63,455 nt of DNA, from the IMG/VR virus record IMGVR_UViG_3300043395_004412, positions 1 to 63,455 of that record; one strand, 5' to 3'. The position numbers and the translations under genes are program-made. This DNA comes from a virus. Its lineage: Duplodnaviria > Caudoviricetes. Positions 3,530 to 42,054 of the stretch are shown piece after piece (position 1 is the first letter of the stretch; every line of letters begins with the position of its first letter). The notes beneath the pieces were generated by a model. It saw only the letters and a list, made by a program, of their open reading frames with translations, made no database searches and was not told where the DNA came from.

Positions 3530-3844
3530 ATGGAAATGAACTTCGACAAAAAATTGAGAATCGCTTTTGTTATTGTGAGTCTATCTTTTTTATGGTCTTT
3601 AGTAATGCTCAGCAAATACAAAGAGCTAAGTGAAAATCCAAAAATTGAAGTTTTGGGTGGTGGTGATATTGCCAAAGCCCAAACAATAGATTCATTACAA
3701 CATGTAATTGATTCTTTATACATGGAAAATTTTCCCTGCCAAGTAGAACTCGGTAGATATCAAGTCGCATACGAAATTTTTATGGAAAGAAATCCTAAAG
3801 CCGCGTCTCAATATGGAGACATAATCTCTGAAGAAACTGAATAA
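3530..3844 (+). CDS. Hypothetical membrane-anchored protein
   Basis: N-terminal TM helix; operon context. Confidence 0.65.
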   Translation: MEMNFDKKLRIAFVIVSLSFLWSLVMLSKYKELSENPKIEVLGGGDIAKAQTIDSLQHVIDSLYMENFPCQVELGRYQVAYEIFMERNPKAASQYGDIISEETE

Positions 3845-4138: not shown

Positions 4139-5809
4139 ATGAGAGTTTTAGGTTTTTCTGTCGGACACGACAAGGGAGCTGTTATTATTGAAAACGGAAA
4201 AATTTTGATTGGAATAACTCAAGAGAGACTTTCTAGAGTTAAACATGATGGTGCACACGTTGGCGGAATAGTCCCAGCAGAATCAATAAGGTATTGTTTA
4301 GATAATACTTCACTCACATTCAAGGATATTGATTTGTGGGTTTATAGTACAACTGAAGAAGTTGATGATGTCCTTATCCAATTCAAAAAATTATTCAAAT
4401 ACGACATTTCTGAAAAACATGAATTTTTACCTCATCACTTGGCTCATGCATATTCTACTTTTTTTAGCTCAGGATTTGATGATGCCGCAGTAGTTGTTGC
4501 TGATGCTTCAGGTAGTATTTTGGATGATAGAAATCGTTTGTCTGAGTGGTATCCAAATAAAACTCGTGAGGGTCTTTTGTCTGGTGAAACTTGGACTGAA
4601 GGAATCTCTATATATCACTTCACAAAATCTGACTATAAAGAAGTTTATAAAAAATGGATTAAATACCCTGTACCAATAGATACAGGCGATGACGTTTCAG
4701 TTGGTACCGTTTACTCTGAAGGGTCATTACAATTAATTTATGAACCTCAACACCATACATGGCCAGCAGGAAAATTAATGGGATTAGCTTCTTATGCTGA
4801 TAAATCAATCGTTGCTGAAGCTCCACATTATATTGTTTGGACCGAGGATGAAGACATATTCATACCAAATAACAGAATCTACCCAAGGGTTTCATACGAC
4901 TCAGATTTTTTCTCAAGAGCCTGTGTTGCAGGAATTTATCAAAGGGAACAAGAAAGGGTTTCTTTGATGTTGGCAGAAAAAGCAAAAAAACTTACAGAAT
5001 CGAAAAACATTTGTGTCGCTGGCGGGTCATTCCTTAATTGTAATTCAAATGAACAAATATTGAATTCGGGTTTATATGAAAATTCTTATTTCATTCCTCC
5101 ATCTGATGACTCAGGTATTCCTTTAGGTTGTGCTTGGTATGGATATCAAATGATAAGCCCAATCAAAAATTTGAAACCTTTATCTCCATATTTGGGTAAA
5201 TCTTATTCCGAAACGGAAATTGTGAAATCTATGAACGAATTTCCAAATATTGAGTTCAGAAGATATGATAATTTTGACGAATTGATTGAGGAAGTTTCAT
5301 ACTTACTACAACAAAACAGAGTTATTGGTTGGTTCCAAAATGGTTCTGAAATTGGTCCAAGAGCTTTAGGAAATCGCTCAATTTTAGCTTCTCCTATACA
5401 AAGATGGATGACTGGGTATATCAATTCAGACATAAAAAAAAGAGAGTGGTACAGACCTTTTGCGCCAGCGGTCCTATTTGAACATCAATCCGAAATATTT
5501 GAATCTGATGTTTTTTCTCCATACATGTTGGTAACTACGACTGTAAAAGAAAATTGGAGAAACAAAATACCTGCGGTGACTCATATTGATAATTCAGCCC
5601 GACACCAGTCAGTTACAGAAGAGTCTAATTCAAAATTTCATAAACTTATTACTTCATTTTATAACAGGACAGGTGTACCAGTTCTTTTAAACACAAGTTT
5701 CAATGGTCCACATGAGCCAATTGTTGAGACACCGATTGACGCAATCAAGTCGATGTACAGCTGTAGATTAGATTTTCTTGTTATAGGTGATATTCTTATT
5801 AAGAGATAA
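4139..5809 (+). CDS. Carbamoyltransferase (NodU/CmcH/TobZ family)
   Basis: GHD, ERLSRVKH, HHLAHA, GKLMGLA, EIGPRALGNRSIL, REWYRPFAP, LLNTSFN. Confidence 0.95.
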   Translation: MRVLGFSVGHDKGAVIIENGKILIGITQERLSRVKHDGAHVGGIVPAESIRYCLDNTSLTFKDIDLWVYSTTEEVDDVLIQFKKLFKYDISEKHEFLPHHLAHAYSTFFSSGFDDAAVVVADASGSILDDRNRLSEWYPNKTREGLLSGETWTEGISIYHFTKSDYKEVYKKWIKYPVPIDTGDDVSVGTVYSEGSLQLIYEPQHHTWPAGKLMGLASYADKSIVAEAPHYIVWTEDEDIFIPNNRIYPRVSYDSDFFSRACVAGIYQREQERVSLMLAEKAKKLTESKNICVAGGSFLNCNSNEQILNSGLYENSYFIPPSDDSGIPLGCAWYGYQMISPIKNLKPLSPYLGKSYSETEIVKSMNEFPNIEFRRYDNFDELIEEVSYLLQQNRVIGWFQNGSEIGPRALGNRSILASPIQRWMTGYINSDIKKREWYRPFAPAVLFEHQSEIFESDVFSPYMLVTTTVKENWRNKIPAVTHIDNSARHQSVTEESNSKFHKLITSFYNRTGVPVLLNTSFNGPHEPIVETPIDAIKSMYSCRLDFLVIGDILIKR

Positions 5810-5814
5810 TTTCA

Positions 5815-7407
5815 ATGAGTACCATTTACGGTTTTTTTGGTGGGTCCCACAGTCCTTCTACATCTTTCATGAAGGATGGTCAAATAATATGTTGTATTGA
5901 AGAAGAAAGACTTACCAGAAAAAAAGCGGGCGACAATTTTGATTCAGTTGCCGAATTAAGTTCAGTGGAAGTAGAAAAAATATCAGGTGTATCAATAAAA
6001 GATGCCGACTACAGAGTTTTTGTTGAGCCTGTTACCGAACTTTTTGCAAATAGATTAACGAACTACAATTACGATAGAGTAAGTCACCACGATGCACATT
6101 GTTATGGTGCATATTTTACAAGTGGTATGGAAGGAAAAGCCTTGAGTATTTCATATGATGGTGGAGGAGATAAATCAGTGATGAAAATTTATCTTTGTGA
6201 AGATGGTAAAATGAATTTAGCCCACTCATATGATATGTGTTCGACTGGTAGTATAGGCCACCTTTGGGCATTTGCAGTAAGCACTATCAAAGGTTATGAC
6301 CACGAAGGTGAGAGCGTATGGAAAATGTGTAAAGACGAAGGCAAATTGATGGGTATGGCTCCCGACGGAGAATACGATGAAACTTTTTACAGAATTCTAA
6401 ATTCTCTCATTGACTATAAAGATTTGCGTTTTTTTCCCAACGATACGGGTAATAAAACAAGGTTTGTGGTTGAATATATGTTTAGATTGGGATGGTTCAA
6501 AGACCAAAAAAATATTGAAAAGTTTTCTTATAATCTTCAAAAATTAACTGAAGATTTAATGTTAAGGTTCCTTAATGACTTACATAAAAAATTTCCCGAA
6601 TACAAAAAACTTTGTCTTTCGGGTGGAATTTTTGCGAATGTAAAACTTAATCAAAAAATTAATCAACTTTCTTGGGTCGATGAAATTTATGTTATGCCAG
6701 CTATGGGTGATGAGGGTTTGAGTTTGGGTGCATGTATCATTAAGGCAACACAATTGGGGGAAATCACAAAACCCTTCAAATTAAAGAATATGTTTTTTGG
6801 TAAGAATTATTCGAATCGTCAAATAATTGATTCGTCAGAAAAATATAATGTGACGTATGAAAAATATGACTCCAAAAAAATTGCAAAACTTATACATGAA
6901 GGCGAAATAATTGGATGGTTTCAAGATGGTTTTGAATATGGACCAAGAGCTCTTGGCGCTAGAAGTATTTTAGTAAGACCCACAGATTATGAAACTCACA
7001 AAAAATTGAACGGTCGACTTAAAAGACACGATTCAATGCCTTTTGCTCCAATTGTTATGGACGAATACTTTGATGATATATTTGTTGAGTCTAAATCTAA
7101 ATATTCTGCAGAATTCATGACCTTGTGTTATCAAACCAAGGATGAATGGATAGATAAAATTCCTGCTGTTATTCAAAAATCCGACAAAACCGCGAGGCCA
7201 CAATTAGTGAAGAATGAAAATAATCCGAAATTTTGGGAAATTTTGAACGAATATCATCTTATTTCAGGAATCCCTGTTTTATTGAATACATCTTTTAACA
7301 CACACAATGAACCCATAATTGATAAACCAGACCATGCATTCCCAAAACTTATGGATGGTACTTTAGATAAACTTGTAATAGGAGACTATGTATTTTCAGT
7401 TAGGTGA
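5815..7407 (+). CDS. Carbamoyltransferase (second paralog)
   Basis: EEERLTRKK, HHDAH, DGGGD, EGKLMGMA, EYGPRALGARSIL, PFAP, LLNTSFN. Confidence 0.95.
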   Translation: MSTIYGFFGGSHSPSTSFMKDGQIICCIEEERLTRKKAGDNFDSVAELSSVEVEKISGVSIKDADYRVFVEPVTELFANRLTNYNYDRVSHHDAHCYGAYFTSGMEGKALSISYDGGGDKSVMKIYLCEDGKMNLAHSYDMCSTGSIGHLWAFAVSTIKGYDHEGESVWKMCKDEGKLMGMAPDGEYDETFYRILNSLIDYKDLRFFPNDTGNKTRFVVEYMFRLGWFKDQKNIEKFSYNLQKLTEDLMLRFLNDLHKKFPEYKKLCLSGGIFANVKLNQKINQLSWVDEIYVMPAMGDEGLSLGACIIKATQLGEITKPFKLKNMFFGKNYSNRQIIDSSEKYNVTYEKYDSKKIAKLIHEGEIIGWFQDGFEYGPRALGARSILVRPTDYETHKKLNGRLKRHDSMPFAPIVMDEYFDDIFVESKSKYSAEFMTLCYQTKDEWIDKIPAVIQKSDKTARPQLVKNENNPKFWEILNEYHLISGIPVLLNTSFNTHNEPIIDKPDHAFPKLMDGTLDKLVIGDYVFSVR

Positions 7408-17543: not shown

Positions 17544-17752
17544 AAGAATTAGATTTACATGGTCTTACAAATCTCGAGGCTCGAGATAAAGTTGAAAACT
17601 TTGTTTTACTTCATTCTACCGAATTACCAATTAGAATTATTACAGGGGGTTCAGAGAGAATGAGAAACATGACTATAAACATTCTTGAAAAACATAAATT
17701 TACTTACGATATACCAGCTCATAATTCTGGTGAAATAATAGTTTTATCATGA
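17531..17752 (+). CDS. Stand-alone Smr (MutS2 C-terminal) domain protein
   Basis: ELDLHGL, IRIITG, NSG motifs. Confidence 0.85.
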   Translation: MGKIKELDLHGLTNLEARDKVENFVLLHSTELPIRIITGGSERMRNMTINILEKHKFTYDIPAHNSGEIIVLS

Positions 17753-18816
17753 ATACGATAGACAAAAAATATCAAGACCTTCTTATTCACATTCTCCGAA
17801 ATGGTGTTGAGAAACAAGATAGAACGGGAACAGGAACAAAATCAGTCTTCGGTTATCAAATACGCCATAATATGAGAGAGGGGTTTCCTCTTCTCACGAC
17901 CAAAAAAATGGCTTGGAAAACTATGGTAACTGAGTTATTATGGTTTTTAAGAGGTGATACAAACATTAAATTCCTTGTAGATAATAATTGCCACATTTGG
18001 GATGGAGATGCTTATAAAAATTATTTCAACAAAAACAAAGCCGATATATTTCACCCAATATTACCACAAGATGCATTCATTAATGCAATCAAAACAAATC
18101 CCGATTTTGCAAAAAAATATGGTGAATTGGGTCCCATCTATGGTAAACAATGGAGACAATGGCAGGGTTGGATGACCACCTCAGAAGGTGAAATGGGTTC
18201 ATTGTGGTTCGACCAAATCCAAAGATTGGTCCACATGTTAAAAACAGAACCTGATTCAAGAAGACTAATGGTCAACGCTTGGAATGTTGGTGAATTGAAT
18301 GAAATGGTGTTACCTCCATGCCATTATGGATTTCAAGTATACACAAGAGAACTTACATATCATGAAAGATACAGTTTGTGGTTTTCGAATAATTACGAAA
18401 CAGGAATGGAATACAATGAAACAATTATACCTGATTTTGATAATGAATATTACACCAAAACACCTACAAGAGCAATATCTTTAATATGGAATCAAAGGTC
18501 TGTTGATACGTTTTTAGGATTACCTTTCAATATTGCATCCTATGGACTATTACTAACATTATTAGGAAAGTTAGTCAACATGGTTCCCGACGAGTTAATC
18601 GGTAATTTGGGAGATACTCATCTATATCTCAATCACATAGACCAAGCAAGAGAACAAATTGAAAGAAATTCATTCGAACTACCAAACGTTAAATTAAATT
18701 TCAATTTTCAGTTTAACGATGGATATCTAGTTGCTTGGGAAAAAATTCGTGTGGATGATATTCATTTGATGAACTACAACTCTCACCCGTCTTTAAAGGC
18801 CCCTTTGAGTAACTAG
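17749..18816 (+). CDS. thyA: Thymidylate synthase
   Basis: DRTGTGT, FPLLTTKK, ELLWFLRG, LPPCH, QRSVDTFLGLPFNIASY, DTHLY. Confidence 0.98.
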   Translation: MNTIDKKYQDLLIHILRNGVEKQDRTGTGTKSVFGYQIRHNMREGFPLLTTKKMAWKTMVTELLWFLRGDTNIKFLVDNNCHIWDGDAYKNYFNKNKADIFHPILPQDAFINAIKTNPDFAKKYGELGPIYGKQWRQWQGWMTTSEGEMGSLWFDQIQRLVHMLKTEPDSRRLMVNAWNVGELNEMVLPPCHYGFQVYTRELTYHERYSLWFSNNYETGMEYNETIIPDFDNEYYTKTPTRAISLIWNQRSVDTFLGLPFNIASYGLLLTLLGKLVNMVPDELIGNLGDTHLYLNHIDQAREQIERNSFELPNVKLNFNFQFNDGYLVAWEKIRVDDIHLMNYNSHPSLKAPLSN

Positions 18817-35330: not shown

Positions 35331-36317
35331 TTAGAATTCAGGCGCGTTTGCGTTGTAATTTTGTAGAATTTCTGCAGCACTCAAACTTTTCGTGTAACAA
35401 TAAACTCTAGCCACTCTACCATTAAGTAAATTTCCACCCGCAAATGTTCCAATATTTGTTGAGCCGTTACCTGGTCTTGGAGATTTATTTGCGGTGTAAG
35501 CACTATCAAAAACACCATTAACATAAAGTTTCATCCCGTCTGTTGTATTGAAGGTCAAAGCAACATAATACCATGTATTCAAATTGAAATTAGCTACTGA
35601 CGGGAATGCAATATAACTCGGCCAATCACTATGACCACAATATATTTTATGAGTTGCTCCAGCAACACCCATATACATAAAATGACCTCCACTAGAGCTA
35701 CTTATGATATTATTATCTTGATATCCGTTAAAATAAACCCAACAAGATTTTGTGTAAGCTGTTGAACCCAAAACTAATCCACTGCCTGTACCATATTGAT
35801 TCGAGCCGTTGAACGTGAAATACGATGGTGATGATGAGGTATAGGTCGGTGAGTTAACCAATGTAATATTTTGTTGGGGGTCAACTAAATCAAACCAAGT
35901 ATTTCCAGTTCCTGGATATGATATTGGATTACTTGCATCCAATTTCAAAGTTAAATTTTCTGTTACCACTTCTGAGTAAGAGGTCCAATATCCATTTGAA
36001 TTTAACCAATTTAATGCTTCAGTACTTCCTGTGAAAGTCTGTCCCGCTATCGTACTTGATAAATCGAGGAACTTATTTTTTGTTTTTCCATCTGTCCTAA
36101 AAAAACCGAGATAAGCGGGTGTGCCAACGGGGTTCGGTTGATTTCCAGTTGGGACGGGCTGTGCAATAACATAACCCAAATCTTGGTCAGGTCCATTCCA
36201 AAATTGTGGTGAATTTGTATACCCCGTTAATGGTACACCAATTGCAAAGTCACCTGACTGTATTGTTCCACCGATTGTTGTACCTGTATTATATGCGAAT
36301 GATTGTATTGTAGCCAT
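35331..36317 (-). CDS. Virion/adhesin protein: shared N-terminal domain + LamG (ConA-like) domain
   Basis: LDASNPISYPGTG; WYYVALT..MKLYVNG; LSAAEILQNYNA. Confidence 0.85.
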   Translation of the reverse strand: MATIQSFAYNTGTTIGGTIQSGDFAIGVPLTGYTNSPQFWNGPDQDLGYVIAQPVPTGNQPNPVGTPAYLGFFRTDGKTKNKFLDLSSTIAGQTFTGSTEALNWLNSNGYWTSYSEVVTENLTLKLDASNPISYPGTGNTWFDLVDPQQNITLVNSPTYTSSSPSYFTFNGSNQYGTGSGLVLGSTAYTKSCWVYFNGYQDNNIISSSSGGHFMYMGVAGATHKIYCGHSDWPSYIAFPSVANFNLNTWYYVALTFNTTDGMKLYVNGVFDSAYTANKSPRPGNGSTNIGTFAGGNLLNGRVARVYCYTKSLSAAEILQNYNANAPEF

Positions 36318-36327
36318 TTTGTGTTTT

Positions 36328-37599
36328 TTAGTTAAAAGTCAAAGACCAATTGAGTAATTCGTGATTATCGTTAGCTCCTCCCGTTGCTGAACCAAATCCC
36401 ATGTAGTAAGAACCTGTATCAAATGAAAAGCTAGTAAATGTTTTATTTGCCGACACAGGTTTTGAATTGGATGTATTCCAATAAAGAGCAAAAGTTTGTG
36501 CTGAATGATTGTAATCACCCCAGAAATACATCGTTTGTCTCCAAAGTCCTGATGAAACCGAGTTAGCCGACTGAAGCACGTTATTTTTATACCAATTGTA
36601 ACTGTTATTGGTATAGGTTAAAAATGTGATTGCATTAATGGTGCCAACAGCCTGTATCAAACCGACACCTCCACCACCAGTTCCTGTCGAGTTATTAGTT
36701 GATGTCCACTGAACGCAATATCCATCTGCACCAGTTCCCCCACCGATAATGGTTTCCCATTGAGTAGAAAAATTTCTATCATATCTAATTGCAGATGTTC
36801 TATAAACATTACCCACCTGGTTATTTCCTGCCGTAGTCAGATAAAGAATATTTGAACTAACCGCAGCATTACCTAAAAGTGTAAGTCCTGCGGTGGATGA
36901 GAAATTAGAATAACTGAATCCTTGTGCGTTTGGAGTTCCCGATGGGGTGTTAGTTGGTGTTGGGGTTTTTGTTGGTGTTTGAGTCTGAGTGTTTGTTGGA
37001 GTAGGAGTGTTTGTTGGAGTAGGAGTTTTTGTTTGTGTAGGTGTAGCCGTAAGTGTAGTTGTTGTAGTTGGTGTAATTGTTGGAGTTAAAGTTTGGGTAG
37101 GTGTAGGCGTAGATGTATTAGTTACAGTTTGTGTAGGTGTAGCCGTAAGTGTAGTTGTTGTAGTTGGGGTGAGTGTTTGCGTTACCGATGGGGTCGGTGT
37201 GTTTGTTGGTGTTTCGGTTTGCGTTATTGTAGGTGTGGGTGTTGGTGTAATTGGGGTAAATGTTGTGGAATAACCATTGGTGTTTAACCAGTTGTATGCA
37301 TCCAACCCATCTGAAAAATTTTGTCCTGAAATTGCATTTACTAAATCAATAAATTCACTTGTGGAGAAACCATTTGTCCTAAAAAATCCCAAATAAGCCG
37401 ATGAACCAACAGGATTTGGTTGCGCTCCTGAAGATACAGGTTGTGCAATTACATAACCCAAACTATCATCTGGACCATTCCAAAATTGTGGTGAGTCGGT
37501 AAAACCTGAAATGGGAGTACCAATTGCGAAATCGCCAGATTGAGTTGTTCCTGATATTGGAACTAAGCTTGGATTATATGCGTAAGGAATTGCCATCAT
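36328..37599 (-). CDS. Virion/adhesin protein: shared N-terminal domain + Thr/Pro linker + legume-lectin-like domain
   Basis: [25 protein letters not shown]...HELLNWS. Confidence 0.85.
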
Positions 37600-38918
37600 T
37601 ATAGACCGTATTTTGACTTTGTATTATTATAGTTTTGTAAAACTTGAGCTCCCGACAGTCCAACGTTGTAAATTTGGCAAGCGCCTAGTCTGTATGTACA
37701 TATTGTTGTAGTTGTGGTCATGTCTGTTGATGTAGGGTAACCTAAATTGAAATACATCGGTAATGAACCACCAGCATTGTAAGGTGTATCTCTTGAATAG
37801 GTTGAACTTCCTACACTACTTCCATTTACATATCCAGTTAAAGTACCATTATATGTCCAACCAACATAATACCAGTTGTTAAGAGCATAAGTTCCTGATG
37901 TTATGGGTGCCGTGTTGATTGTATACGGCCAAACACCAAATAAAAATCTATTACTTGAATCTCTTTGAATTTGAGCGTCATACCAACCTCCATCAGGGGT
38001 TAAGTTACCTTGTTCGGAATATATTATACCATTCGATGTTGGGTAAATCCATAAGAACATAGATTGATTTGTTCCTGTATTAGCGGGGGACAAATAAGGG
38101 TTGATATTGGCCGTATAGATATATTCGAACGTGCCTCCATCAATTGTAAGATAATTTGGAGAACCACTTGTATAAACTATCGTTCCCGTCAAAGTTCCAT
38201 TGATGTTTCCTTTAAGGTCAGTAATAACTGAGCCTGAACCGCTATATGAACTTGAATTTTGTATATCCCAATTCATAATCAAATTGGTCTGAATCAAAGC
38301 TGTTGTTGGTGAAGGTGTTACTGTTGGCGTTGGTGTAGTTGTTTTGGTTGGAGTTTGAGTTACTGTTGGCGTTGGTGTAGTTGTTTTGGTTGGAGTTTGA
38401 GTTACTGTTGGCGTTGGTGTAGTTGTTTTGGTTGGAGTTTGAGTTACTGTTGGCGTTTGAGTAGGAGTAGCGGTAAGAGTGGTTGTTGTTGTTGGCGTTG
38501 GTGTAGTTGTTGTCGTTGGGGTATTTGTAGGTGTTTCGGTTTGTGTTATTGTAGGTGTGGGTGTTGGTGTAATGGGGGTAAATGTTGTGGAATAACCGTT
38601 GCTGTTTAACCAATTATATGCATCCAATCCATCTGAAAAATTTTGTCCCGAAATTGAGTTAACCAAATCTATGAACTCAGAAACCAAAAATCCGTTTGTC
38701 CTAAAAAATCCCAAATAAGCAGATGAGCCAACAGGATTTGGTTGGTTTCCCGCTGATATAGGTTGTGCAATTACATAACCCAAACTATCATCTGGACCGT
38801 TCCAAAATTGTGGTGAATTCGTAAAACCTGAGATTGGACTACCTATCGCAAAGTCTCCCGATTGGGTTGTACCCGATATCGGAATTAAACTTGGGTTGTA
38901 TGCGTAAGGAATTGCCAT
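37599..38918 (-). CDS. Virion/adhesin protein: shared N-terminal domain + Thr/Pro linker + LamG domain
   Basis: [33 protein letters not shown]. Confidence 0.85.
38317..38456. repeat. 42-bp perfect tandem repeat, about 3.3 copies
   Basis: GTTACTGTTGGCGTTGGTGTAGTTGTTTTGGTTGGAGTTTGA; encodes [14 protein letters not shown]. Confidence 0.9.
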
Positions 38919-38946
38919 TTTTTTATAAATATCTATTCTATTTTCA

Positions 38947-39507
38947 TCAACATTGACCCCAATTGATGACTTTGGTTCCAACTACTTGAATGAAAGTTGC
39001 TCCATCCGTGATAGTGAATTTAGCACCTACAGGGGGGATTGAAAATTGTCTATTCCCGTAAACATTATCTCCAGGTCTTAATTGATGAAATGGTTTTGGT
39101 GCGTAAATGGTAACATTACTCGGGGTCCCATAGTCAATAGACTCACATACGTCTTGATACCAATTTCCTGTTATTAAATTTTCTATGAAAACAGGTGTAG
39201 GTGTAAAGGTTGGAGTTGGGGTATAGGTCGCAGTTGGAGTTGGTGTGTGAACCGTTGGTGTTACAGTCATTGTTGGTGTAACCGATGGGGTCAGAGTTGC
39301 TGTCGGAGTCGCGGATGGGCATGGACCCATAATTTGAATATTCAGAGGAGAACTATATTCTTCCTGTAATAAATTTTCAGCACAAACATATGCTCTATCC
39401 AATGGGTTCAAAGGGGATACACTTATAATTCCTGTACATCCCGTCCAAACGTAATATCCTTCTTCAACTGTGTTATAATTGGTTATTTCGTAGTAATTAC
39501 ACGCCAT
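38947..39507 (-). CDS. Thr/Pro-linker, Cys-containing virion protein
   Basis: TPT repeats between two small domains. Confidence 0.75.
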   Translation of the reverse strand: MACNYYEITNYNTVEEGYYVWTGCTGIISVSPLNPLDRAYVCAENLLQEEYSSPLNIQIMGPCPSATPTATLTPSVTPTMTVTPTVHTPTPTATYTPTPTFTPTPVFIENLITGNWYQDVCESIDYGTPSNVTIYAPKPFHQLRPGDNVYGNRQFSIPPVGAKFTITDGATFIQVVGTKVINWGQC

Positions 39508-39530
39508 AACAATAAATAGAATGGGGGGAT

Positions 39531-39561
39531 AAAAAAAAAGGGGGACACCGTCGTGTCCCCC
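39531..39561 (-). terminator. Strong intrinsic terminator of ncRNA cassette
   Basis: GGGGGACAC-GACG-GTGTCCCCC + T9. Confidence 0.9.
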
Positions 39562-39842
39562 GAATCTCCGTCGAGATAAATTTGGTCCTATTTTTTTTAG
39601 ACTAAGGGGCCGAAGACCATCAAACCCGTGGGAGTGGACAACTCCTATTTCTATTTTACGCCTGAAACATCCAAAAGAAGGCTTAGGTTGTTAGTTTATT
39701 AAGGATGAAACTGGAATTACCTTTCCATGTAAACCTCCCGTGTTTGGTTTGTCCATAATTTCTGAATTTATAAAGCGGAGAAGAAATCAGGAAGGGTGAG
39801 TATGGGGAACCACCGCTCGTAAACATTCCGCTGTCCATTTGT
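39531..39842 (-). ncRNA. Putative ~310-nt structured ncRNA
   Basis: Own promoter and terminator; raised GC; many complementary segments. Confidence 0.65.
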
Positions 39843-39846
39843 TTTA

Positions 39847-39878
39847 CAAAGATAAGAAAGATTTTAATGCCTTCCAAA
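39847..39878 (-). promoter_or_regulatory. Bacteroidota sigma70-type promoter
   Basis: TTTG-N20-TATCTTTG. Confidence 0.8.
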
Positions 39879-39916
39879 TCTTTTCAAAAAATTCAGATAA
39901 AAATCTGAAAATTTCG

Positions 39917-40004
39917 TGGTTGGGAGTGGAGTCGAACCACTGGCACACGGTGTTCACCCGCTGCTCTACCATAAACCCCGAAGAGTTACTGAGCTACCTC
40001 AACC
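39917..40004 (-). ncRNA. Atypical tRNA-like RNA
   Basis: Acceptor GGTTG(A)GG/CCCAACC, TA-GCTC...GAGC D-stem, AGTGG-TTCGACT-CCACT T-arm; D-loop has extra UUCG hairpin; anticodon arm defective. Confidence 0.8.
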
Positions 40005-40014
40005 AATTGTCTTA

Positions 40015-40046
40015 CAAAGATAAGAAATCTTTTTCGGACCGCCAAA
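40015..40046 (-). promoter_or_regulatory. Bacteroidota sigma70-type promoter
   Basis: TTTG-N20-TATCTTTG. Confidence 0.8.
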
Positions 40047-40065
40047 ATTTGTAAGAACTTTTTTT

Positions 40066-40108
40066 GTTCGAATACCGAGTATCTTTCATCGCCTTTAAGT
40101 TCCGAACT
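40066..40108 (-). ncRNA. Putative ~45-nt hairpin RNA
   Basis: GTTCGGA/TTCGAAC closing stem with inner CGA/TCG stem, directly after promoter. Confidence 0.45.
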
Positions 40109-40113
40109 GAACA

Positions 40114-40145
40114 CAAAACTAATTACTATTTCCTATTCCGTCAAA
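40114..40145 (-). promoter_or_regulatory. Bacteroidota sigma70-type promoter
   Basis: TTTG-N20-TAGTTTTG. Confidence 0.75.
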
Positions 40146-40164
40146 TTTTTTGGTATTTATTTTT

Positions 40165-40806
40165 ATGAAGAAATTATTTTTAACCACCATTTTGTTTTTA
40201 AGTATAGGAATTTCATATTCACAAGATACTATAAGAGTGAATCACACAAATTACACTACTGTTTTTTCCAAATCAAAAAAATATCCTGTAGTTGTCGAAT
40301 GGTGGGTTACCAAAGACATGGTGAGTTGCCCGTATCCATTAAAAAGAAAAGACAACTTTAAACCTGACCCAAAGCTATTTCAATACACTGATTTATTAAA
40401 AGATTATGTGGGAAGTGGTTTTGATAGAGGACATATGATGCCTGCCGCAGATAATCTTTGCCAAACTCAACAGGTTCAAGATGAATGTTTCTATTTTTCT
40501 AACATGGCTGCACAATATCATAGTTTGAATGCGGGTGATTGGAAGTCTCTAGAAACCTATGTGAGAGAGGAATCAAAGAAAAGTGACTCAGTACGAGTGT
40601 GGTGTGGGAATTTGGGTGAAATAAAAAAAATTGGTTCGGTATCAGTACCCAAGTATTGCTGGAAAGTAATTTACATCAAGAAAGAAAATATATGGAAATC
40701 ATTCTTATTTAATAACGACAATTCAAAACCTGACGGGTTTCAAAATAACGAAGTCAAGTTATCTGAAATTGAAAAAATGACGGGTTTTAAATTTAAGAAT
40801 TTATAA
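40165..40806 (+). CDS. Secreted DNA/RNA non-specific endonuclease (NucA/EndA type)
   Basis: Signal peptide; GFDRGHMMPAAD; SNMAAQ..LN..W..LE; VPKYCWKV. Confidence 0.93.
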   Translation: MKKLFLTTILFLSIGISYSQDTIRVNHTNYTTVFSKSKKYPVVVEWWVTKDMVSCPYPLKRKDNFKPDPKLFQYTDLLKDYVGSGFDRGHMMPAADNLCQTQQVQDECFYFSNMAAQYHSLNAGDWKSLETYVREESKKSDSVRVWCGNLGEIKKIGSVSVPKYCWKVIYIKKENIWKSFLFNNDNSKPDGFQNNEVKLSEIEKMTGFKFKNL

Positions 40807-41089
40807 CACCGTCAAGATATTTTTTTATTGTCCTTCTAATTTTTTGCTCCCCTAAAGCAACCCAGTCATCTTCAATCATTTGAAAAATTTTCCCGACTAA
40901 GTATTTTTTATTGCCGACTAGTGGTCTTGTTTTATCGTCAATTTGTATTAATTTAAGAGGAGTTTTCATCCAATCAAAATTGATTTCATGAGTTGGGAAA
41001 TGTCTTTTCAGATAAGTCAAAAGTTCATCTGAAGTATCGTCAACATATTTTGATAAAATTTCTTTTCTTTCTTCCTCTGTAATACGCAT
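40793..41089 (-). CDS. Hypothetical protein with leader motif
   Basis: MRITEEERKEILSKY. Confidence 0.7.
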   Translation of the reverse strand: MRITEEERKEILSKYVDDTSDELLTYLKRHFPTHEINFDWMKTPLKLIQIDDKTRPLVGNKKYLVGKIFQMIEDDWVALGEQKIRRTIKKYLDGVINS

Positions 41090-41128
41090 AATCATAAATA
41101 TAGGTCTATTTATTTGAAAATCTAACAC

Positions 41129-41263
41129 ATGGCAAAAGCAAAAGGCGGCGCGAGAGCTGAATCAAGAAAAATTACTTTCGGTAAAAGAAAAGGTGGAGTT
41201 GCAAAGAAATCTTATAACAAAAACAATCCGAGACCGAAAGCATATCGAGGTCAAGGACGCTAA
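41129..41263 (+). CDS. 44-aa very basic protein ending YRGQGR (not in ORF track)
   Basis: MAKAKGGARAESRKITFGKRKGG...PKAYRGQGR; TATTTAT upstream. Confidence 0.8.
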   Translation: MAKAKGGARAESRKITFGKRKGGVAKKSYNKNNPRPKAYRGQGR

Positions 41264-41299
41264 CTTTAGTTTTCTATAAATTGAGTTATAATTTTTATC

Positions 41300-41587
41300 A
41301 TGTTAGATAAGAAAAGAAGACTATTTCGCCTAATAGAAACCTACATCAATGATTACCAAAAAGAAGCTGTGGAGGAGATGTATGGTGTTGGTACAAGAAT
41401 CAAAATCCACAACATTGTAGAGTCTCAAACTCAAAAGTCAATTTTATTCGAGGCTGTGATTATTTTGGGTGAAACTATAACTGAACAAGTTATGGATAGA
41501 AAATTAGCCGATGTGTTAATTCAGGATGCGATGGTCTATTTTTTTCCTGACCAATCAATTAAAACTTATGTAAGGTGGGATGTTTAG
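41300..41587 (+). CDS. Hypothetical protein
   Basis: 95-aa ORF. Confidence 0.7.
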   Translation: MLDKKRRLFRLIETYINDYQKEAVEEMYGVGTRIKIHNIVESQTQKSILFEAVIILGETITEQVMDRKLADVLIQDAMVYFFPDQSIKTYVRWDV

Positions 41588-41892
41588 AGATTTCTTTTTC
41601 TCATCTCCTCGAGTAACTCACTATTCTCTTTTTGTAAAAATTCAACTTTGACCGTAAGTGCTGAAACCTTTTCAGTCAACGACAAAATTGTCGTTCTCAT
41701 ATCATCTTTTTCTTTTGAGCTCATTTGAAGAAGAGCTTCCAATTTGGATATTCTATCTCTGCAATCGTCACGAACAAAATCTTCGTCTCTTTCTTTTCTC
41801 ATGGCTCTTTTTTCGTAGAATCTCCAGGCACTTGTTGAACCCAAAACTGTGACGATGGTTATTAACACCGTCCAAACTGAATCACTCGTCAT
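41584..41892 (-). CDS. TM + coiled-coil protein (holin-like)
   Basis: N-terminal TM, coiled coil. Confidence 0.7.
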   Translation of the reverse strand: MTSDSVWTVLITIVTVLGSTSAWRFYEKRAMRKERDEDFVRDDCRDRISKLEALLQMSSKEKDDMRTTILSLTEKVSALTVKVEFLQKENSELLEEMRKRNL

Positions 41893-42054
41893 AAATTAAT
41901 TTTTCATTTATTTTCATAAATACCGAAAAGTAAAGAAAAAATTATTTTTTTATCTGATGAATTTCCGAAGGGAGGGAAATAATTATTATTCTTATAGAAT
42001 AATAATATAAATTATAAAATATAAAAAAACTAGTAATACTAGTTCTAGAGGTTT

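What the first reader, a model, noticed from the sequence alone, without database searches (positions are those of the whole stretch)
39917..40004. tRNA mimic with a UUCG hairpin in the D-loop and a crippled anticodon arm
Seen: intact T-arm (AGTGG-TTCGACT-CCACT), D-stem (GCTC/GAGC) and an acceptor stem with a bulged A. The D-loop carries a ~16-nt insert AACTC-TTCG-GGGTT; deleting it restores the canonical AGTTGGTA. The anticodon arm GCGGGTGAACACCGT cannot form a 5-bp stem with a 7-nt loop (at best 4 bp around GAA). The cUUCGg tetraloop and dedicated promoter argue against a decayed pseudogene. Inference: a non-decoding decoy for anticodon nucleases, uncharged-tRNA sensors or synthetases, or a tRNA with a non-canonical D-loop intron.
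Basis: partly seen in the sequence, partly recalled or inferred. Interest (0 to 1): 0.8.

Follow-up and report, generated by a model that had tools for sequence, protein, structure and literature searches.

The report
Phage tRNA-Phe look-alike beside abundant RNA
This is a conserved phage gene for a phenylalanine-tRNA look-alike that carries an extra hairpin and always sits just before a very abundant structured RNA, much as its cousins sit before the giant GOLLD RNA.

Summary
On the minus strand, 40004..39917 encodes an 88-nt tRNA-like RNA. It has an acceptor-stem bulge, a 14-nt cUUCGg hairpin inside the D-loop and a 15-nt anticodon arm (4 bp, 7-nt loop, GAA). ARAGORN misses it and Rfam scores it 26.5 bits, below the cut-off of 29.

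It is not a decayed pseudogene. It belongs to a family found only in viral and metagenome contigs: 60 unique hairpin-bearing sequences with 38 different hairpin stems kept by compensatory changes. Hairpin-less relatives are near-canonical tRNA-Phe, differing only by the acceptor bulge and a pyrimidine at position 37. Non-canonical anticodon arms occur only in hairpin bearers. GAA is kept in 48 of 48 group-A sequences and A73 in 47 of 48.

In every relative with enough sequence, the gene lies 83-148 nt upstream of a conserved ~300-nt structured non-coding RNA. That RNA has no Rfam match and is hugely covered in four metatranscriptomes. A second phage group carries the same kind of tRNA-Phe look-alike upstream of GOLLD RNA.

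Best reading (0.45): a tRNA-Phe-derived, PheRS-recognisable but non-standard tRNA that works with the adjacent RNA. Its expression and charging are untested.

The parts
39917..40004 (-). tRNA-Phe-derived RNA gene, 88 nt. Acceptor stem with bulged A (39999), D-stem, T-arm TTCGACT, discriminator A, no encoded CCA.
   Evidence: Identical or near-identical copies occur in viral contigs. Six of the phage's 7 canonical tRNAs also lack an encoded CCA.
39974..39987 (-). Hairpin inserted in the D-loop between position 16/17 and G18 (AACTC-UUCG-GGGUU).
   Evidence: 42 of 42 group-A inserts fold into a hairpin of at least 4 bp. There are 38 distinct stems among 60 unique sequences. Native inserts fold at -4.5 kcal/mol, against -1.4 for chimeric halves and -1.3 for shuffles.
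39947..39961 (-). 15-nt anticodon arm: 4-bp stem (G.U, C-G, G-C, G-C) and 7-nt loop GUGAACA. U precedes GAA (39955..39953) and C sits at position 37.
   Evidence: Family arm lengths are 15 (5 sequences), 16 (15), 17 (25) and 18 (3), with GAA in 48 of 48. Stem pairs 2-4 show compensatory changes.
40015..40046 (-). Promoter-like motif TTTG-N20-TAtcTTTG, ending 10 nt upstream of the RNA's first base.
   Evidence: Sequence. The exact 14-mer occurs only here and at 39844-39857. The consensus is from my own knowledge of Bacteroidota promoters.
39886..39909 (-). Weak AU-rich hairpin (7 bp) plus a run of 6 T: terminator-like spacer between the two RNA genes.
   Evidence: Sequence. A hairpin plus T-run is conserved in relatives. 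It was not called by the scan.
39847..39878 (-). Second copy of the promoter motif (TTTG-N20-TAtcTTTG), in front of the downstream non-coding RNA.
   Evidence: It is conserved in all 18 aligned relatives.
39531..39839 (-). Conserved ~300-nt structured non-coding RNA ending in a strong intrinsic terminator (stem 39561..39540). It is the constant downstream partner of the tRNA-like gene.
   Evidence: Alignment A3 (17 sequences): 95.2% of cells paired and 21 of 42 pairs with changes on both sides, with 0 of 500 shuffles as high. The ATG is not conserved and indels are not multiples of 3. There is no Rfam hit. RNA-library contigs reach depth 83-1819, against 0-5 for flanking genes. The terminator was called.

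Best explanation
The element is a functional phage gene derived from tRNA-Phe.

Inferred steps: it is transcribed from its own Bacteroidota-type promoter. It is matured like the phage's other tRNAs, by RNase P, 3' trimming and CCA addition by the host. It folds into an L-shape with an extra hairpin projecting from the D-loop at position 17.

It keeps what a phenylalanyl-tRNA synthetase reads: G34-A35-A36, A73, U20, G10, A26, G44/U45 (identity set recalled from my own knowledge). It has given up features the ribosome needs. All group-A members have a bulged acceptor stem and most have a pyrimidine at position 37. This phage's lineage has a 4-bp anticodon stem.

I therefore read it as a specialised, PheRS-recognisable tRNA-Phe mimic that decodes poorly or not at all. 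I also read it as one half of a two-gene RNA module, the other half being the very abundant ~300-nt structured RNA encoded directly downstream. The same pairing is seen in a second phage group, where a D-hairpin tRNA-Phe look-alike precedes GOLLD RNA.

What is shown: conservation, covariation, the evolutionary series and the linkage. What is inferred: maturation, PheRS recognition, loss of decoding and any physical or functional link to the neighbouring RNA.

My odds: real selected RNA gene 0.93; not an ordinary decoder in this phage 0.6; functionally coupled to the neighbouring RNA 0.45.
For: Family size. The D-arm pattern with a 10-30-nt insert hits 59 viral contigs. By my count, 32 are group A (this type), 19 are group B and 8 are other.

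Selection on the hairpin. There are 60 unique hairpin-bearing GAA sequences with 38 distinct stems. At the five outermost stem positions, 28-41 sequences have both sides changed. Native inserts fold at -4.5 kcal/mol, against -1.38 for chimeric halves and -1.33 for shuffles.

Evolutionary series (48 unique group-A sequences). All 6 without a hairpin have a canonical 17-nt arm; one of them, L190, is called tRNA-Phe by ARAGORN. Of the 42 with a hairpin, 23 have arms of 15, 16 or 18 nt. GAA is kept in 48 of 48 and A73 in 47 of 48. Position 37 is C in 22 of 25 canonical loops.

Anticodon stem. Pairs 2-4 show 31, 33 and 16 sequences with both sides changed.

Constraint relative to neighbours. The flanking 111-aa protein has diverged to 53-94% identity, while the T-arm and acceptor stem are almost invariant.

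Co-occurrence with a normal tRNA-Phe. Contig L049 carries a canonical tRNA-Phe about 110 nt from a hairpin variant.

Linkage to the downstream RNA. 31 of 33 group-A loci have the RNA motif 83-148 nt downstream; the other 2 loci are too short. 27 of 28 viral stretches with the RNA motif have the tRNA-like upstream, and 1 is too short. In metagenomes, 77 of 80 true RNA copies with enough upstream sequence have it. The syntenic relative L172 lacks both genes.

Group B. In 12 of 15 loci scanned, GOLLD lies on the same strand 540-1040 nt downstream. The other 3 have at most 1028 nt of downstream sequence.

Distribution. I saw no group A or B member among the 102 cellular-genome stretches, and the RNA profile hit none of them.

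Literature, passages read. GOLLD and ROOL are encoded in phages, 'often near tRNA islands', with tRNAs sometimes inside the GOLLD linker (PMC12286853; PMC5737381). A pseudo-tRNA is predicted inside a mycobacterial GOLLD gene (PMC6582537).
Against: Expression of the tRNA-like itself is not shown. The RNA-library contigs over it have depth about 2 and belong to a variant strain (8 other letters). They could be DNA carry-over or read-through.

25 of 48 group-A sequences, including 19 hairpin bearers, keep a canonical 5-bp/7-nt arm with U33-GAA. Many members could therefore still decode.

There is no cognate-specific base complementarity between the hairpin or anticodon arm and the neighbouring RNA. 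Duplex energy is -11.7 for cognate pairs and -11.6 for non-cognate pairs.

The hairpin loops are not conserved (UUCG, UUUA, GNRA-like, pentaloops), so a sequence-specific docking role is unlikely.

Adjacency could simply reflect clustering of RNA genes.

Three metagenome copies of the RNA lack a canonical-body tRNA-like. L225 has a degenerate one without GAA; L226 and L310 have none.

The neighbouring RNA is not GOLLD by Rfam. A sequence profile of it hits 0 of 19 group-B loci, so the parallel is one of arrangement, not homology.

PheRS recognition is argued from recalled identity rules and was not tested.
Confidence: 0.45

Rival explanations
1. It is a working tRNA-Phe that still decodes UUU/UUC. 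Its D-loop hairpin, acceptor bulge and altered anticodon arm make it resistant to a host tRNA-cleaving defence, so phage translation continues when host tRNA-Phe is destroyed.
For: U33-GAA and the tRNA-Phe body are kept in all 48 group-A sequences, and 25 of 48 have a canonical arm. The fastest-changing part is the anticodon arm, which is where anticodon nucleases cut. Phage tRNAs are reported to escape such nucleases through anticodon-loop changes (PMC10264068, abstract in the listing). [quoted passage not shown] A tRNA-Phe-specific anticodon nuclease exists in humans (PMC10246899, abstract in the listing). The phage has no other tRNA-Phe.
Against: This phage's arm has a 4-bp stem, and other members have 16- or 18-nt arms. 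C at position 37 and a bulged acceptor stem are poor features for a decoder (my knowledge). The phage's 7 ordinary tRNAs are canonical and clustered 38 kb away. L049 has a normal tRNA-Phe beside the variant. A Spinach aptamer inserted at the same D-loop site of E. coli tRNA-Tyr gave no detectable RNA in cells (PMC5397188, passages). This reading also does not explain the constant linkage to the downstream RNA.
Confidence: 0.25
2. It is a free-standing decoy or sponge for a host factor that binds tRNA-Phe: an anticodon nuclease, a modification enzyme, PheRS itself or an uncharged-tRNA sensor. It has no functional tie to the neighbouring RNA.
For: The tRNA-Phe body and GAA are kept while decoding geometry is relaxed. 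The gene has its own promoter.
Against: A decoy for one nuclease should copy the host anticodon loop, yet loop size and position 37 vary. There is no evidence of the high expression a sponge would need. The strict linkage to the downstream RNA is left unexplained.
Confidence: 0.12
3. It is mainly a processing signal. It is a tRNA-shaped handle that recruits RNase P and RNase Z, so that read-through transcripts are cut and the downstream RNA gets defined ends, as with tRNA punctuation or the MALAT1/mascRNA pair (recalled).
For: It always lies 83-148 nt upstream of the RNA on the same strand. Only a weak terminator lies between them. RNA-library contigs run upstream of the RNA's promoter box as far as 39884-39891.
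Against: Processing needs only the acceptor and T arms. The kept GAA, the covarying anticodon stem, A73 and the D-loop hairpin would then be unexplained. The downstream RNA has its own conserved promoter motif.
Confidence: 0.08
4. The hairpin is a D-loop intron that is removed to give a normal-sized tRNA.
For: Removing 16 nt restores a canonical D-loop. Archaeal tRNAs with D-loop inserts turned up in the genome scan.
Against: The insert is a simple 4-7-bp hairpin without the bulge-helix-bulge that the archaeal splicing enzyme needs. Bacteria and their phages are not known to have that enzyme (my knowledge). No joints were seen, though the contigs hardly cover the site. Removal would not repair the acceptor bulge or the short anticodon arm.
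Confidence: 0.03
5. It is a decaying tRNA pseudogene or an attachment-site remnant.
For: It scores below the Rfam threshold and ARAGORN misses it. A degenerate tRNA-Phe duplicate with inserts exists in a Bacteroidota MAG (L085). L225 looks like further decay.
Against: There are compensatory changes in three helices. Core positions are invariant while neighbouring proteins diverge to 53% identity. The promoter is conserved. The whole tRNA is present, not only a 3' half.
Confidence: 0.03

Closest known systems
tRNAs and pseudo-tRNAs encoded next to or inside GOLLD and ROOL RNAs of phages and prophages
   Same: A tRNA-shaped gene lies directly beside a large, highly structured phage RNA of unknown function. 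In group B the partner is GOLLD itself, at 281-309 bits in 11 loci. The literature notes the tRNA neighbourhood and a pseudo-tRNA inside GOLLD.
   Different: In this window the partner RNA is about 300 nt, is not recognised by the GOLLD or ROOL models, and shares no detectable sequence with the group-B loci. In the passages I read, no paper describes a D-loop hairpin or a constant tRNA-Phe identity for such tRNAs.
Phage tRNAs with anticodon-loop changes that escape host anticodon nucleases
   Same: A phage-encoded tRNA gene whose anticodon arm differs from the norm while the body is kept.
   Different: Those tRNAs keep a normal cloverleaf and decode. This one adds a fifth hairpin and an acceptor bulge, and in this phage it shortens the anticodon stem. 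I saw only the abstract of PMC10264068.
Archaeal tRNA genes with non-canonical introns in the D-loop
   Same: Extra sequence lies at the same place in the D-loop. Examples from Bathyarchaeia and Nitrososphaerota appear.
   Different: Those inserts are longer, have bulge-helix-bulge-like flanks and are spliced by an archaeal enzyme (my knowledge). This one is a plain hairpin in a phage with bacterial-type promoters.
YrlA (bacterial Y-RNA-like) tRNA-mimic module
   Same: A non-decoding RNA that keeps D- and T-arm features of tRNA. A YrlA-like match sits about 150 nt upstream of the group-B element in L008, at 40.4 bits against a gathering score of 69.
   Different: YrlA is permuted: the acceptor end is closed and the ends lie in the anticodon stem (my reading plus recall). 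This element has normal tRNA topology and did not match YrlA.
Non-proteinogenic tRNA-Gly of staphylococci and other aminoacyl-tRNAs used outside the ribosome (recalled, not checked here)
   Same: The idea of a chargeable tRNA kept away from translation by changes outside the identity set.
   Different: No aminoacyl-transferase gene was found beside this element, and charging is untested.

Membership tests
Canonical elongator tRNA-Phe | Scores above the curated tRNA model threshold and is called by tRNA finders | tested here: not met
   Rfam 26.5 bits against a gathering score of 29. ARAGORN does not call it. The hairpin-less relative L190 is called tRNA-Phe.
Canonical elongator tRNA-Phe | 7-bp acceptor stem without bulges | tested here: not met
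   The 5' strand has 8 nt against 7 on the 3' strand, and one base is bulged (A here). The bulge is present in all 48 group-A sequences: T in 31, A in 11, C in 6.
Canonical elongator tRNA-Phe | D-loop of about 7-11 nt with G18 G19 | tested here: not met
   G18 G19 are present, but the loop is 24 nt and contains a 14-nt hairpin.
Canonical elongator tRNA-Phe | 5-bp anticodon stem, 7-nt loop, U33, purine at 37 | tested here: not met
   It has a 4-bp stem and the 7-nt loop GUGAACA. U33 and GAA are present, but position 37 is C. 25 of 48 relatives do have 5 bp plus 7 nt, yet 22 of those 25 have C37.
Canonical elongator tRNA-Phe | T-arm with TTCGA loop, 5-bp stem and 5-nt variable loop | tested here: met
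   AGTGG-TTCGACT-CCACT with variable loop GTGCC. The first T-stem pair covaries A-T/G-C in 37 versus 22 sequences.
Canonical elongator tRNA-Phe | PheRS identity set (G34 A35 A36, A73, U20 and core bases; recalled) and actual charging with Phe | not testable with these tools
   The bases are present in the sequence: GAA in 48 of 48 and A73 in 47 of 48. Charging needs an enzyme assay.
tRNA pseudogene | Random decay without compensatory changes | tested here: not met
   38 distinct hairpin stems are all paired. Compensatory changes occur in the acceptor, T, hairpin and anticodon stems.
tRNA with a bulge-helix-bulge intron | Two 3-nt bulges flanking a 4-bp helix at the exon-intron borders | tested here: not met
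   The insert folds as a plain hairpin of 4-7 bp with a 4-6-nt loop in 42 of 42 group-A sequences.
GOLLD- or ROOL-associated tRNA | Encoded beside a GOLLD or ROOL RNA | tested here: not met
   There is no GOLLD or ROOL hit in the window. The neighbour is a different ~300-nt RNA. Group-B cousins do meet this feature.
tmRNA or YrlA tRNA mimics | Match to the curated models | tested here: not met
   Neither family hit at E up to 10 over 39500-40500.

The most novel reading that the evidence does not exclude
The D-hairpin tRNA-Phe look-alike is the dedicated partner of a whole class of abundant ornate phage RNAs: GOLLD in one phage group and the new ~300-nt RNA here. The partnership could be as cargo, adaptor or substrate. 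If so, the pair forms a two-RNA machine acting on translation or on Phe-tRNA metabolism during infection. That would give the first concrete handle on what GOLLD-type RNAs do.
Probability: 0.2. Interest if true: 0.9.

Novelty: new variant of a known kind. Interest (0 to 1): 0.72.

Why it matters
GOLLD and ROOL are among the largest bacterial and phage RNAs. Their cage-like structures are solved, but their function is unknown, and the only recurring clue is that they lie near tRNA genes. This analysis finds a specific, recognisable tRNA-Phe derivative with an extra D-loop hairpin. It is tied to GOLLD in one phage group and to a new, extremely abundant ~300-nt RNA in another.

That turns a vague neighbourhood into a testable pair. 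One can ask whether the two RNAs bind each other, whether the look-alike is charged with Phe, and whether it enters the ribosome.

The family also shows, as a natural series, how a tRNA can gain a fifth arm and then loosen its anticodon arm while keeping its anticodon bases. Standard tRNA finders miss or mislabel these genes: ARAGORN calls some of them Pro, Cys, Arg, Thr, Gln or SeC.

Four full-text searches for such a D-loop hairpin in phage tRNAs found no description. Supplements and subscription papers were not visible to me.

Tried and rejected
Close relatives among cultured phages. There are none. A 20-kb megablast, a protein search with a 482-aa ORF, and a distant search with the downstream RNA all found nothing in the phage collection. 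The tRNA-like itself matched only the 3' half of Bacillus-phage tRNA-Phe genes.

Protein partner. Ten neighbouring ORFs gave no tRNA-related enzyme. They gave only a secreted DNA/RNA non-specific endonuclease, a holin-like protein, DUF2452 and virion proteins.

Pairing between the hairpin or anticodon arm and the neighbouring RNA. Cognate and non-cognate duplex energies are the same. An apparent match of a CCTTAA segment to one hairpin type was dropped, because the segment is conserved whatever the hairpin.

T-box, RNase P, tmRNA, SRP and 6S readings of the downstream RNA. No Rfam family matched at E up to 10.

Small ORF in the downstream RNA. The 64-aa frame at 39683..39877 is not conserved.

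MAFFT-based consensus folding of the tRNA-like family. It failed in the hairpin and acceptor regions because of length differences. I used a regex parse and per-sequence folds instead. Hairpin pairs there are paired by construction, and only the chimera and shuffle controls speak to selection.

RNA reads. Only contigs were available, so neither strand, ends nor level of the tRNA-like can be told. The lack of cover over 39917-40004 is not evidence of silence.

My first regex for the downstream RNA was wrong and gave 2 hits (first part). It was corrected.

ARAGORN's calls of Pro, Cys, Arg, SeC, Thr and Gln for family members are artefacts of forcing the hairpin into the cloverleaf.

Full report
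**What is there.** The window is a complete 63,455-bp virus record. The feature is on the minus strand, 40004..39917. It reads as a tRNA cloverleaf with three departures:
- One extra, bulged base in the 5' strand of the acceptor stem.
- A 24-nt D-loop that contains a 5-bp hairpin closed by a UUCG loop, inserted between position 16/17 and the conserved G18 G19.
- An anticodon arm of 15 instead of 17 nt, giving a 4-bp stem and the loop GUGAACA. U precedes GAA and a C follows it.

The D-stem, T-arm, 5-nt variable loop and discriminator A are canonical. The Rfam tRNA model aligns over its full length at 26.5 bits, just under the gathering score of 29 (E = 0.0046 in 1 kb). ARAGORN finds the phage's seven ordinary tRNAs but not this one. 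Six of those seven also lack an encoded CCA, so its absence here is normal for this phage. The fold energy alone is unremarkable (z = -0.63).

**Transcription signals.** A TTTG-N20-TAtcTTTG motif ends 10 nt before the first base. I recognise it as the Bacteroidota promoter type from my own knowledge. Its 14-mer core occurs exactly only twice in the genome, here and 168 nt downstream. A weak hairpin plus T-run follows the gene. The consensus scan did not call it.

**It is a family, not a relic.**
- Scan of viral contigs: a search for the D-arm with a 10-30-nt insert gave 59 contigs. By my count from the listing, 32 share this element's acceptor stem with its bulge (group A). Another 19 form a second type with a normal 7-bp acceptor stem and an 8-nt loop NNYGAAAG (group B). 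Eight are other things. These include two contigs with a CAU version, and one jumbo contig (L049) where a canonical tRNA-Phe lies about 110 nt from a hairpin variant.
- Scan of 185,579 species' genomes: the same pattern gave 102 stretches. They are archaeal tRNAs with D-loop inserts, assembly duplications and a few oddities. I saw no group A or B member among them.
- Pooled set: viral, metagenome and window sequences together give 60 unique hairpin-bearing, GAA-containing sequences with 38 different hairpin stems. At each of the five outer stem positions, 28-41 sequences have both sides changed.
- Controls: these pairs come from per-sequence folds, so the controls are what matter. Native inserts fold at -4.5 kcal/mol, chimeras of halves from different sequences at -1.38, and shuffles at -1.33.
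- Other helices: acceptor, T and anticodon stems also show compensatory changes.
- Neighbouring protein: the flanking 111-aa protein has drifted to 53-94% identity, while the T-arm and acceptor sequence are almost invariant.

**An evolutionary series.** Among 48 unique group-A sequences, 6 have no hairpin. All 6 have a canonical 17-nt anticodon arm, and ARAGORN calls one of them (L190) tRNA-Phe. The other 42 have the hairpin, and 23 of these have arms of 15, 16 or 18 nt.

| Feature | Count |
|---|---|
| GAA present | 48 of 48 |
| Discriminator A | 47 of 48 |
| Acceptor bulge present | 48 of 48 (T 31, A 11, C 6) |
| C at position 37, among canonical 7-nt loops | 22 of 25 |

The lineage therefore began as an already odd tRNA-Phe, with a bulge and a pyrimidine at 37. 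It then gained a fifth arm, and only afterwards loosened its anticodon-arm geometry, never losing the three anticodon bases. The window's 15-nt form exists as five unique variants that differ by compensatory hairpin changes, so it too is maintained.

**The neighbour.** Four metatranscriptome runs from four studies were laid on 38000-42000.
- Contigs of very high depth cover about 39566-39891: 1819, 136, 737-1222 and 83. Flanking genes sit at 0-5.
- Loose ends that I read as sequencing adapter lie at 39575, 39585 and 39891, which suggests a short molecule.
- These are contigs, so strand and true ends are not shown.
- The tRNA-like itself is covered only by depth-2 contigs of a variant strain.

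The covered stretch is a conserved ~300-nt RNA gene at 39839..39531 on the minus strand. It has its own copy of the promoter motif and a strong terminator.
- In 17 aligned relatives, 95.2% of cells pair, and 21 of 42 predicted pairs have changes on both sides. None of 500 shuffles reached this, and slid controls pair at 41-59%.
- The start codon of the only ORF is not conserved, and indels break the frame.
- No Rfam family matches, and there is no match in cultured phages.

**Linkage.**
- 31 of 33 group-A loci have this RNA 83-148 nt downstream; the other two loci end too early.
- 27 of 28 viral stretches with the RNA motif have the tRNA-like upstream; one is too short.
Of these, 77 are true copies with a tRNA-like upstream, 7 are too short, 31 are chance matches of the 17-mer and 2 lie at locus edges. 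Three true copies lack a canonical-body tRNA-like: one has a degenerate version without GAA and two have none.
- One syntenic relative, L172, has a protein gene in place of both RNAs.

**The GOLLD parallel.** In group B, the D-hairpin tRNA-Phe look-alike lies on the same strand 540-1040 nt upstream of the conserved 3' domain of GOLLD RNA.
- 15 of the 19 group-B loci were scanned.
- GOLLD is complete in 11 loci (281-309 bits) and cut by the locus end in one.
- The three loci without a hit have at most 1028 nt downstream.

[quoted passage not shown] They report that both RNAs form cages, with the function of both unknown (PMC12286853; PMC5737381). A pseudo-tRNA is predicted inside a mycobacterial GOLLD gene (PMC6582537). 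The window's RNA is not GOLLD: a profile of it hits none of the 19 group-B loci. The likeness is one of arrangement.

**Reading.** The constraints point to an RNA that must still look like tRNA-Phe to something that reads the three anticodon bases, the discriminator and the tRNA core. That something need not be the ribosome. PheRS fits best, by recalled identity rules. The constant linkage suggests the RNA works with the abundant neighbour. I put this combined reading at 0.45.

The main rival, at 0.25, is a decoding tRNA-Phe hardened against a host tRNA nuclease. It is favoured by the 25 of 48 canonical arms and by published cases of phage tRNAs escaping anticodon nucleases. It is disfavoured by the 4-bp stem here, C37, the bulge, the co-occurring normal tRNA-Phe in L049, and the failure of an engineered insertion at this D-loop site (PMC5397188).

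Decoy, processing-signal, intron and pseudogene readings are less likely, for the reasons given under the rivals.

No base-pairing between the two RNAs was detectable, and no enzyme partner is encoded nearby.

**Limits.** Nothing here shows that the tRNA-like RNA is made, matured or charged. Hosts are unknown. The runs that hold the phage are freshwater, riverine and sediment metagenomes, and the promoter type suggests Bacteroidota. Literature claims rest on four full-text searches and on passages of the named papers. Supplements and several key papers could not be seen.

Noticed in passing
window 39531-39839 (minus strand): A conserved ~300-nt structured non-coding RNA with its own promoter motif and a strong terminator. 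It has no Rfam match. RNA-library contigs reach depth 83-1819 in four metatranscriptomes, against 0-5 for neighbouring genes. Metagenome contigs hold at least 87 true copies (scan stopped at its limit). It may be a new RNA class.
   Followed up: partly
L003:4476-4887, L044:1998-2418, L046:7008-7433 and 8 more loci: Complete GOLLD RNA genes (281-309 bits) lie 540-1040 nt downstream of the group-B D-hairpin tRNA-Phe look-alike, on the same strand.
   Followed up: partly
L008:4495-4593; also L008:2100-2193 and 3696-3783: Group-B phages carry further odd tRNA-shaped genes, each behind its own promoter motif. One is a YrlA-like, apparently permuted tRNA module (40.4 bits, below the gathering score of 69). 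Two others are ~90-nt tRNA-like genes that ARAGORN labels Pro or unknown.
   Followed up: no
L055:3438-3689 (minus), L003:5956-6207 (minus) and about 50 other loci: An 84-aa protein that is 77-100% identical across group-B and some group-A phages is encoded just upstream of the tRNA-like/RNA module. It has no Pfam or PHROG match, and this window has no copy.
   Followed up: partly
L049:6085-6173 and 6284-6356; L049:4093-4188: A 362-kb viral contig has a canonical tRNA-Phe about 110 nt from a D-hairpin variant with an 8-nt loop. It also has a small SRP RNA match (40.9 bits against a gathering score of 40).
   Followed up: no
L034:13565-13652, L035:1115-1202: Two viral contigs hold a tRNA-like gene with a covarying D-loop hairpin, a 15-nt anticodon arm and CAU instead of GAA. 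The hairpin and short-arm combination is therefore not limited to tRNA-Phe.
   Followed up: no
L225 (upstream of its RNA copy): A degenerate version of the tRNA-like: the D-loop hairpin and acceptor bulge are kept, but the T-loop is changed and GAA is lost. L226 and L310 have the RNA with no recognisable tRNA-like.
   Followed up: no
window 40150-40806 (+): A signal-peptide-bearing DNA/RNA non-specific endonuclease gene (Pfam Endonuclease_NS, E = 3e-40) lies between the tRNA-like gene and the conserved upstream genes. By the ORF clustering it is shared by 8 of the loci compared, including the window.
   Followed up: no
window 4139-7407 and 17749-18816: Two tandem carbamoyltransferase genes and a thymidylate-synthase-like gene (PHROG matches), possibly for DNA base modification.
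   Followed up: no
window 35331-39507 (minus): Four consecutive paralogous tail-fibre-like genes with Pro/Thr-rich linkers lie directly downstream of the RNA module.
   Followed up: no
L046:9465-9859, L003:2717-3112, L028:11224-11619: Phage-encoded tmRNA genes occur in the GOLLD-carrying contigs.
   Followed up: no
L085:1150-1270 (minus): A Bacteroidota MAG has a truncated tRNA-Phe duplicate with hairpin inserts in the D-loop and variable region, directly upstream of its normal tRNA-Phe. It looks like a remnant rather than a family member.
   Followed up: partly
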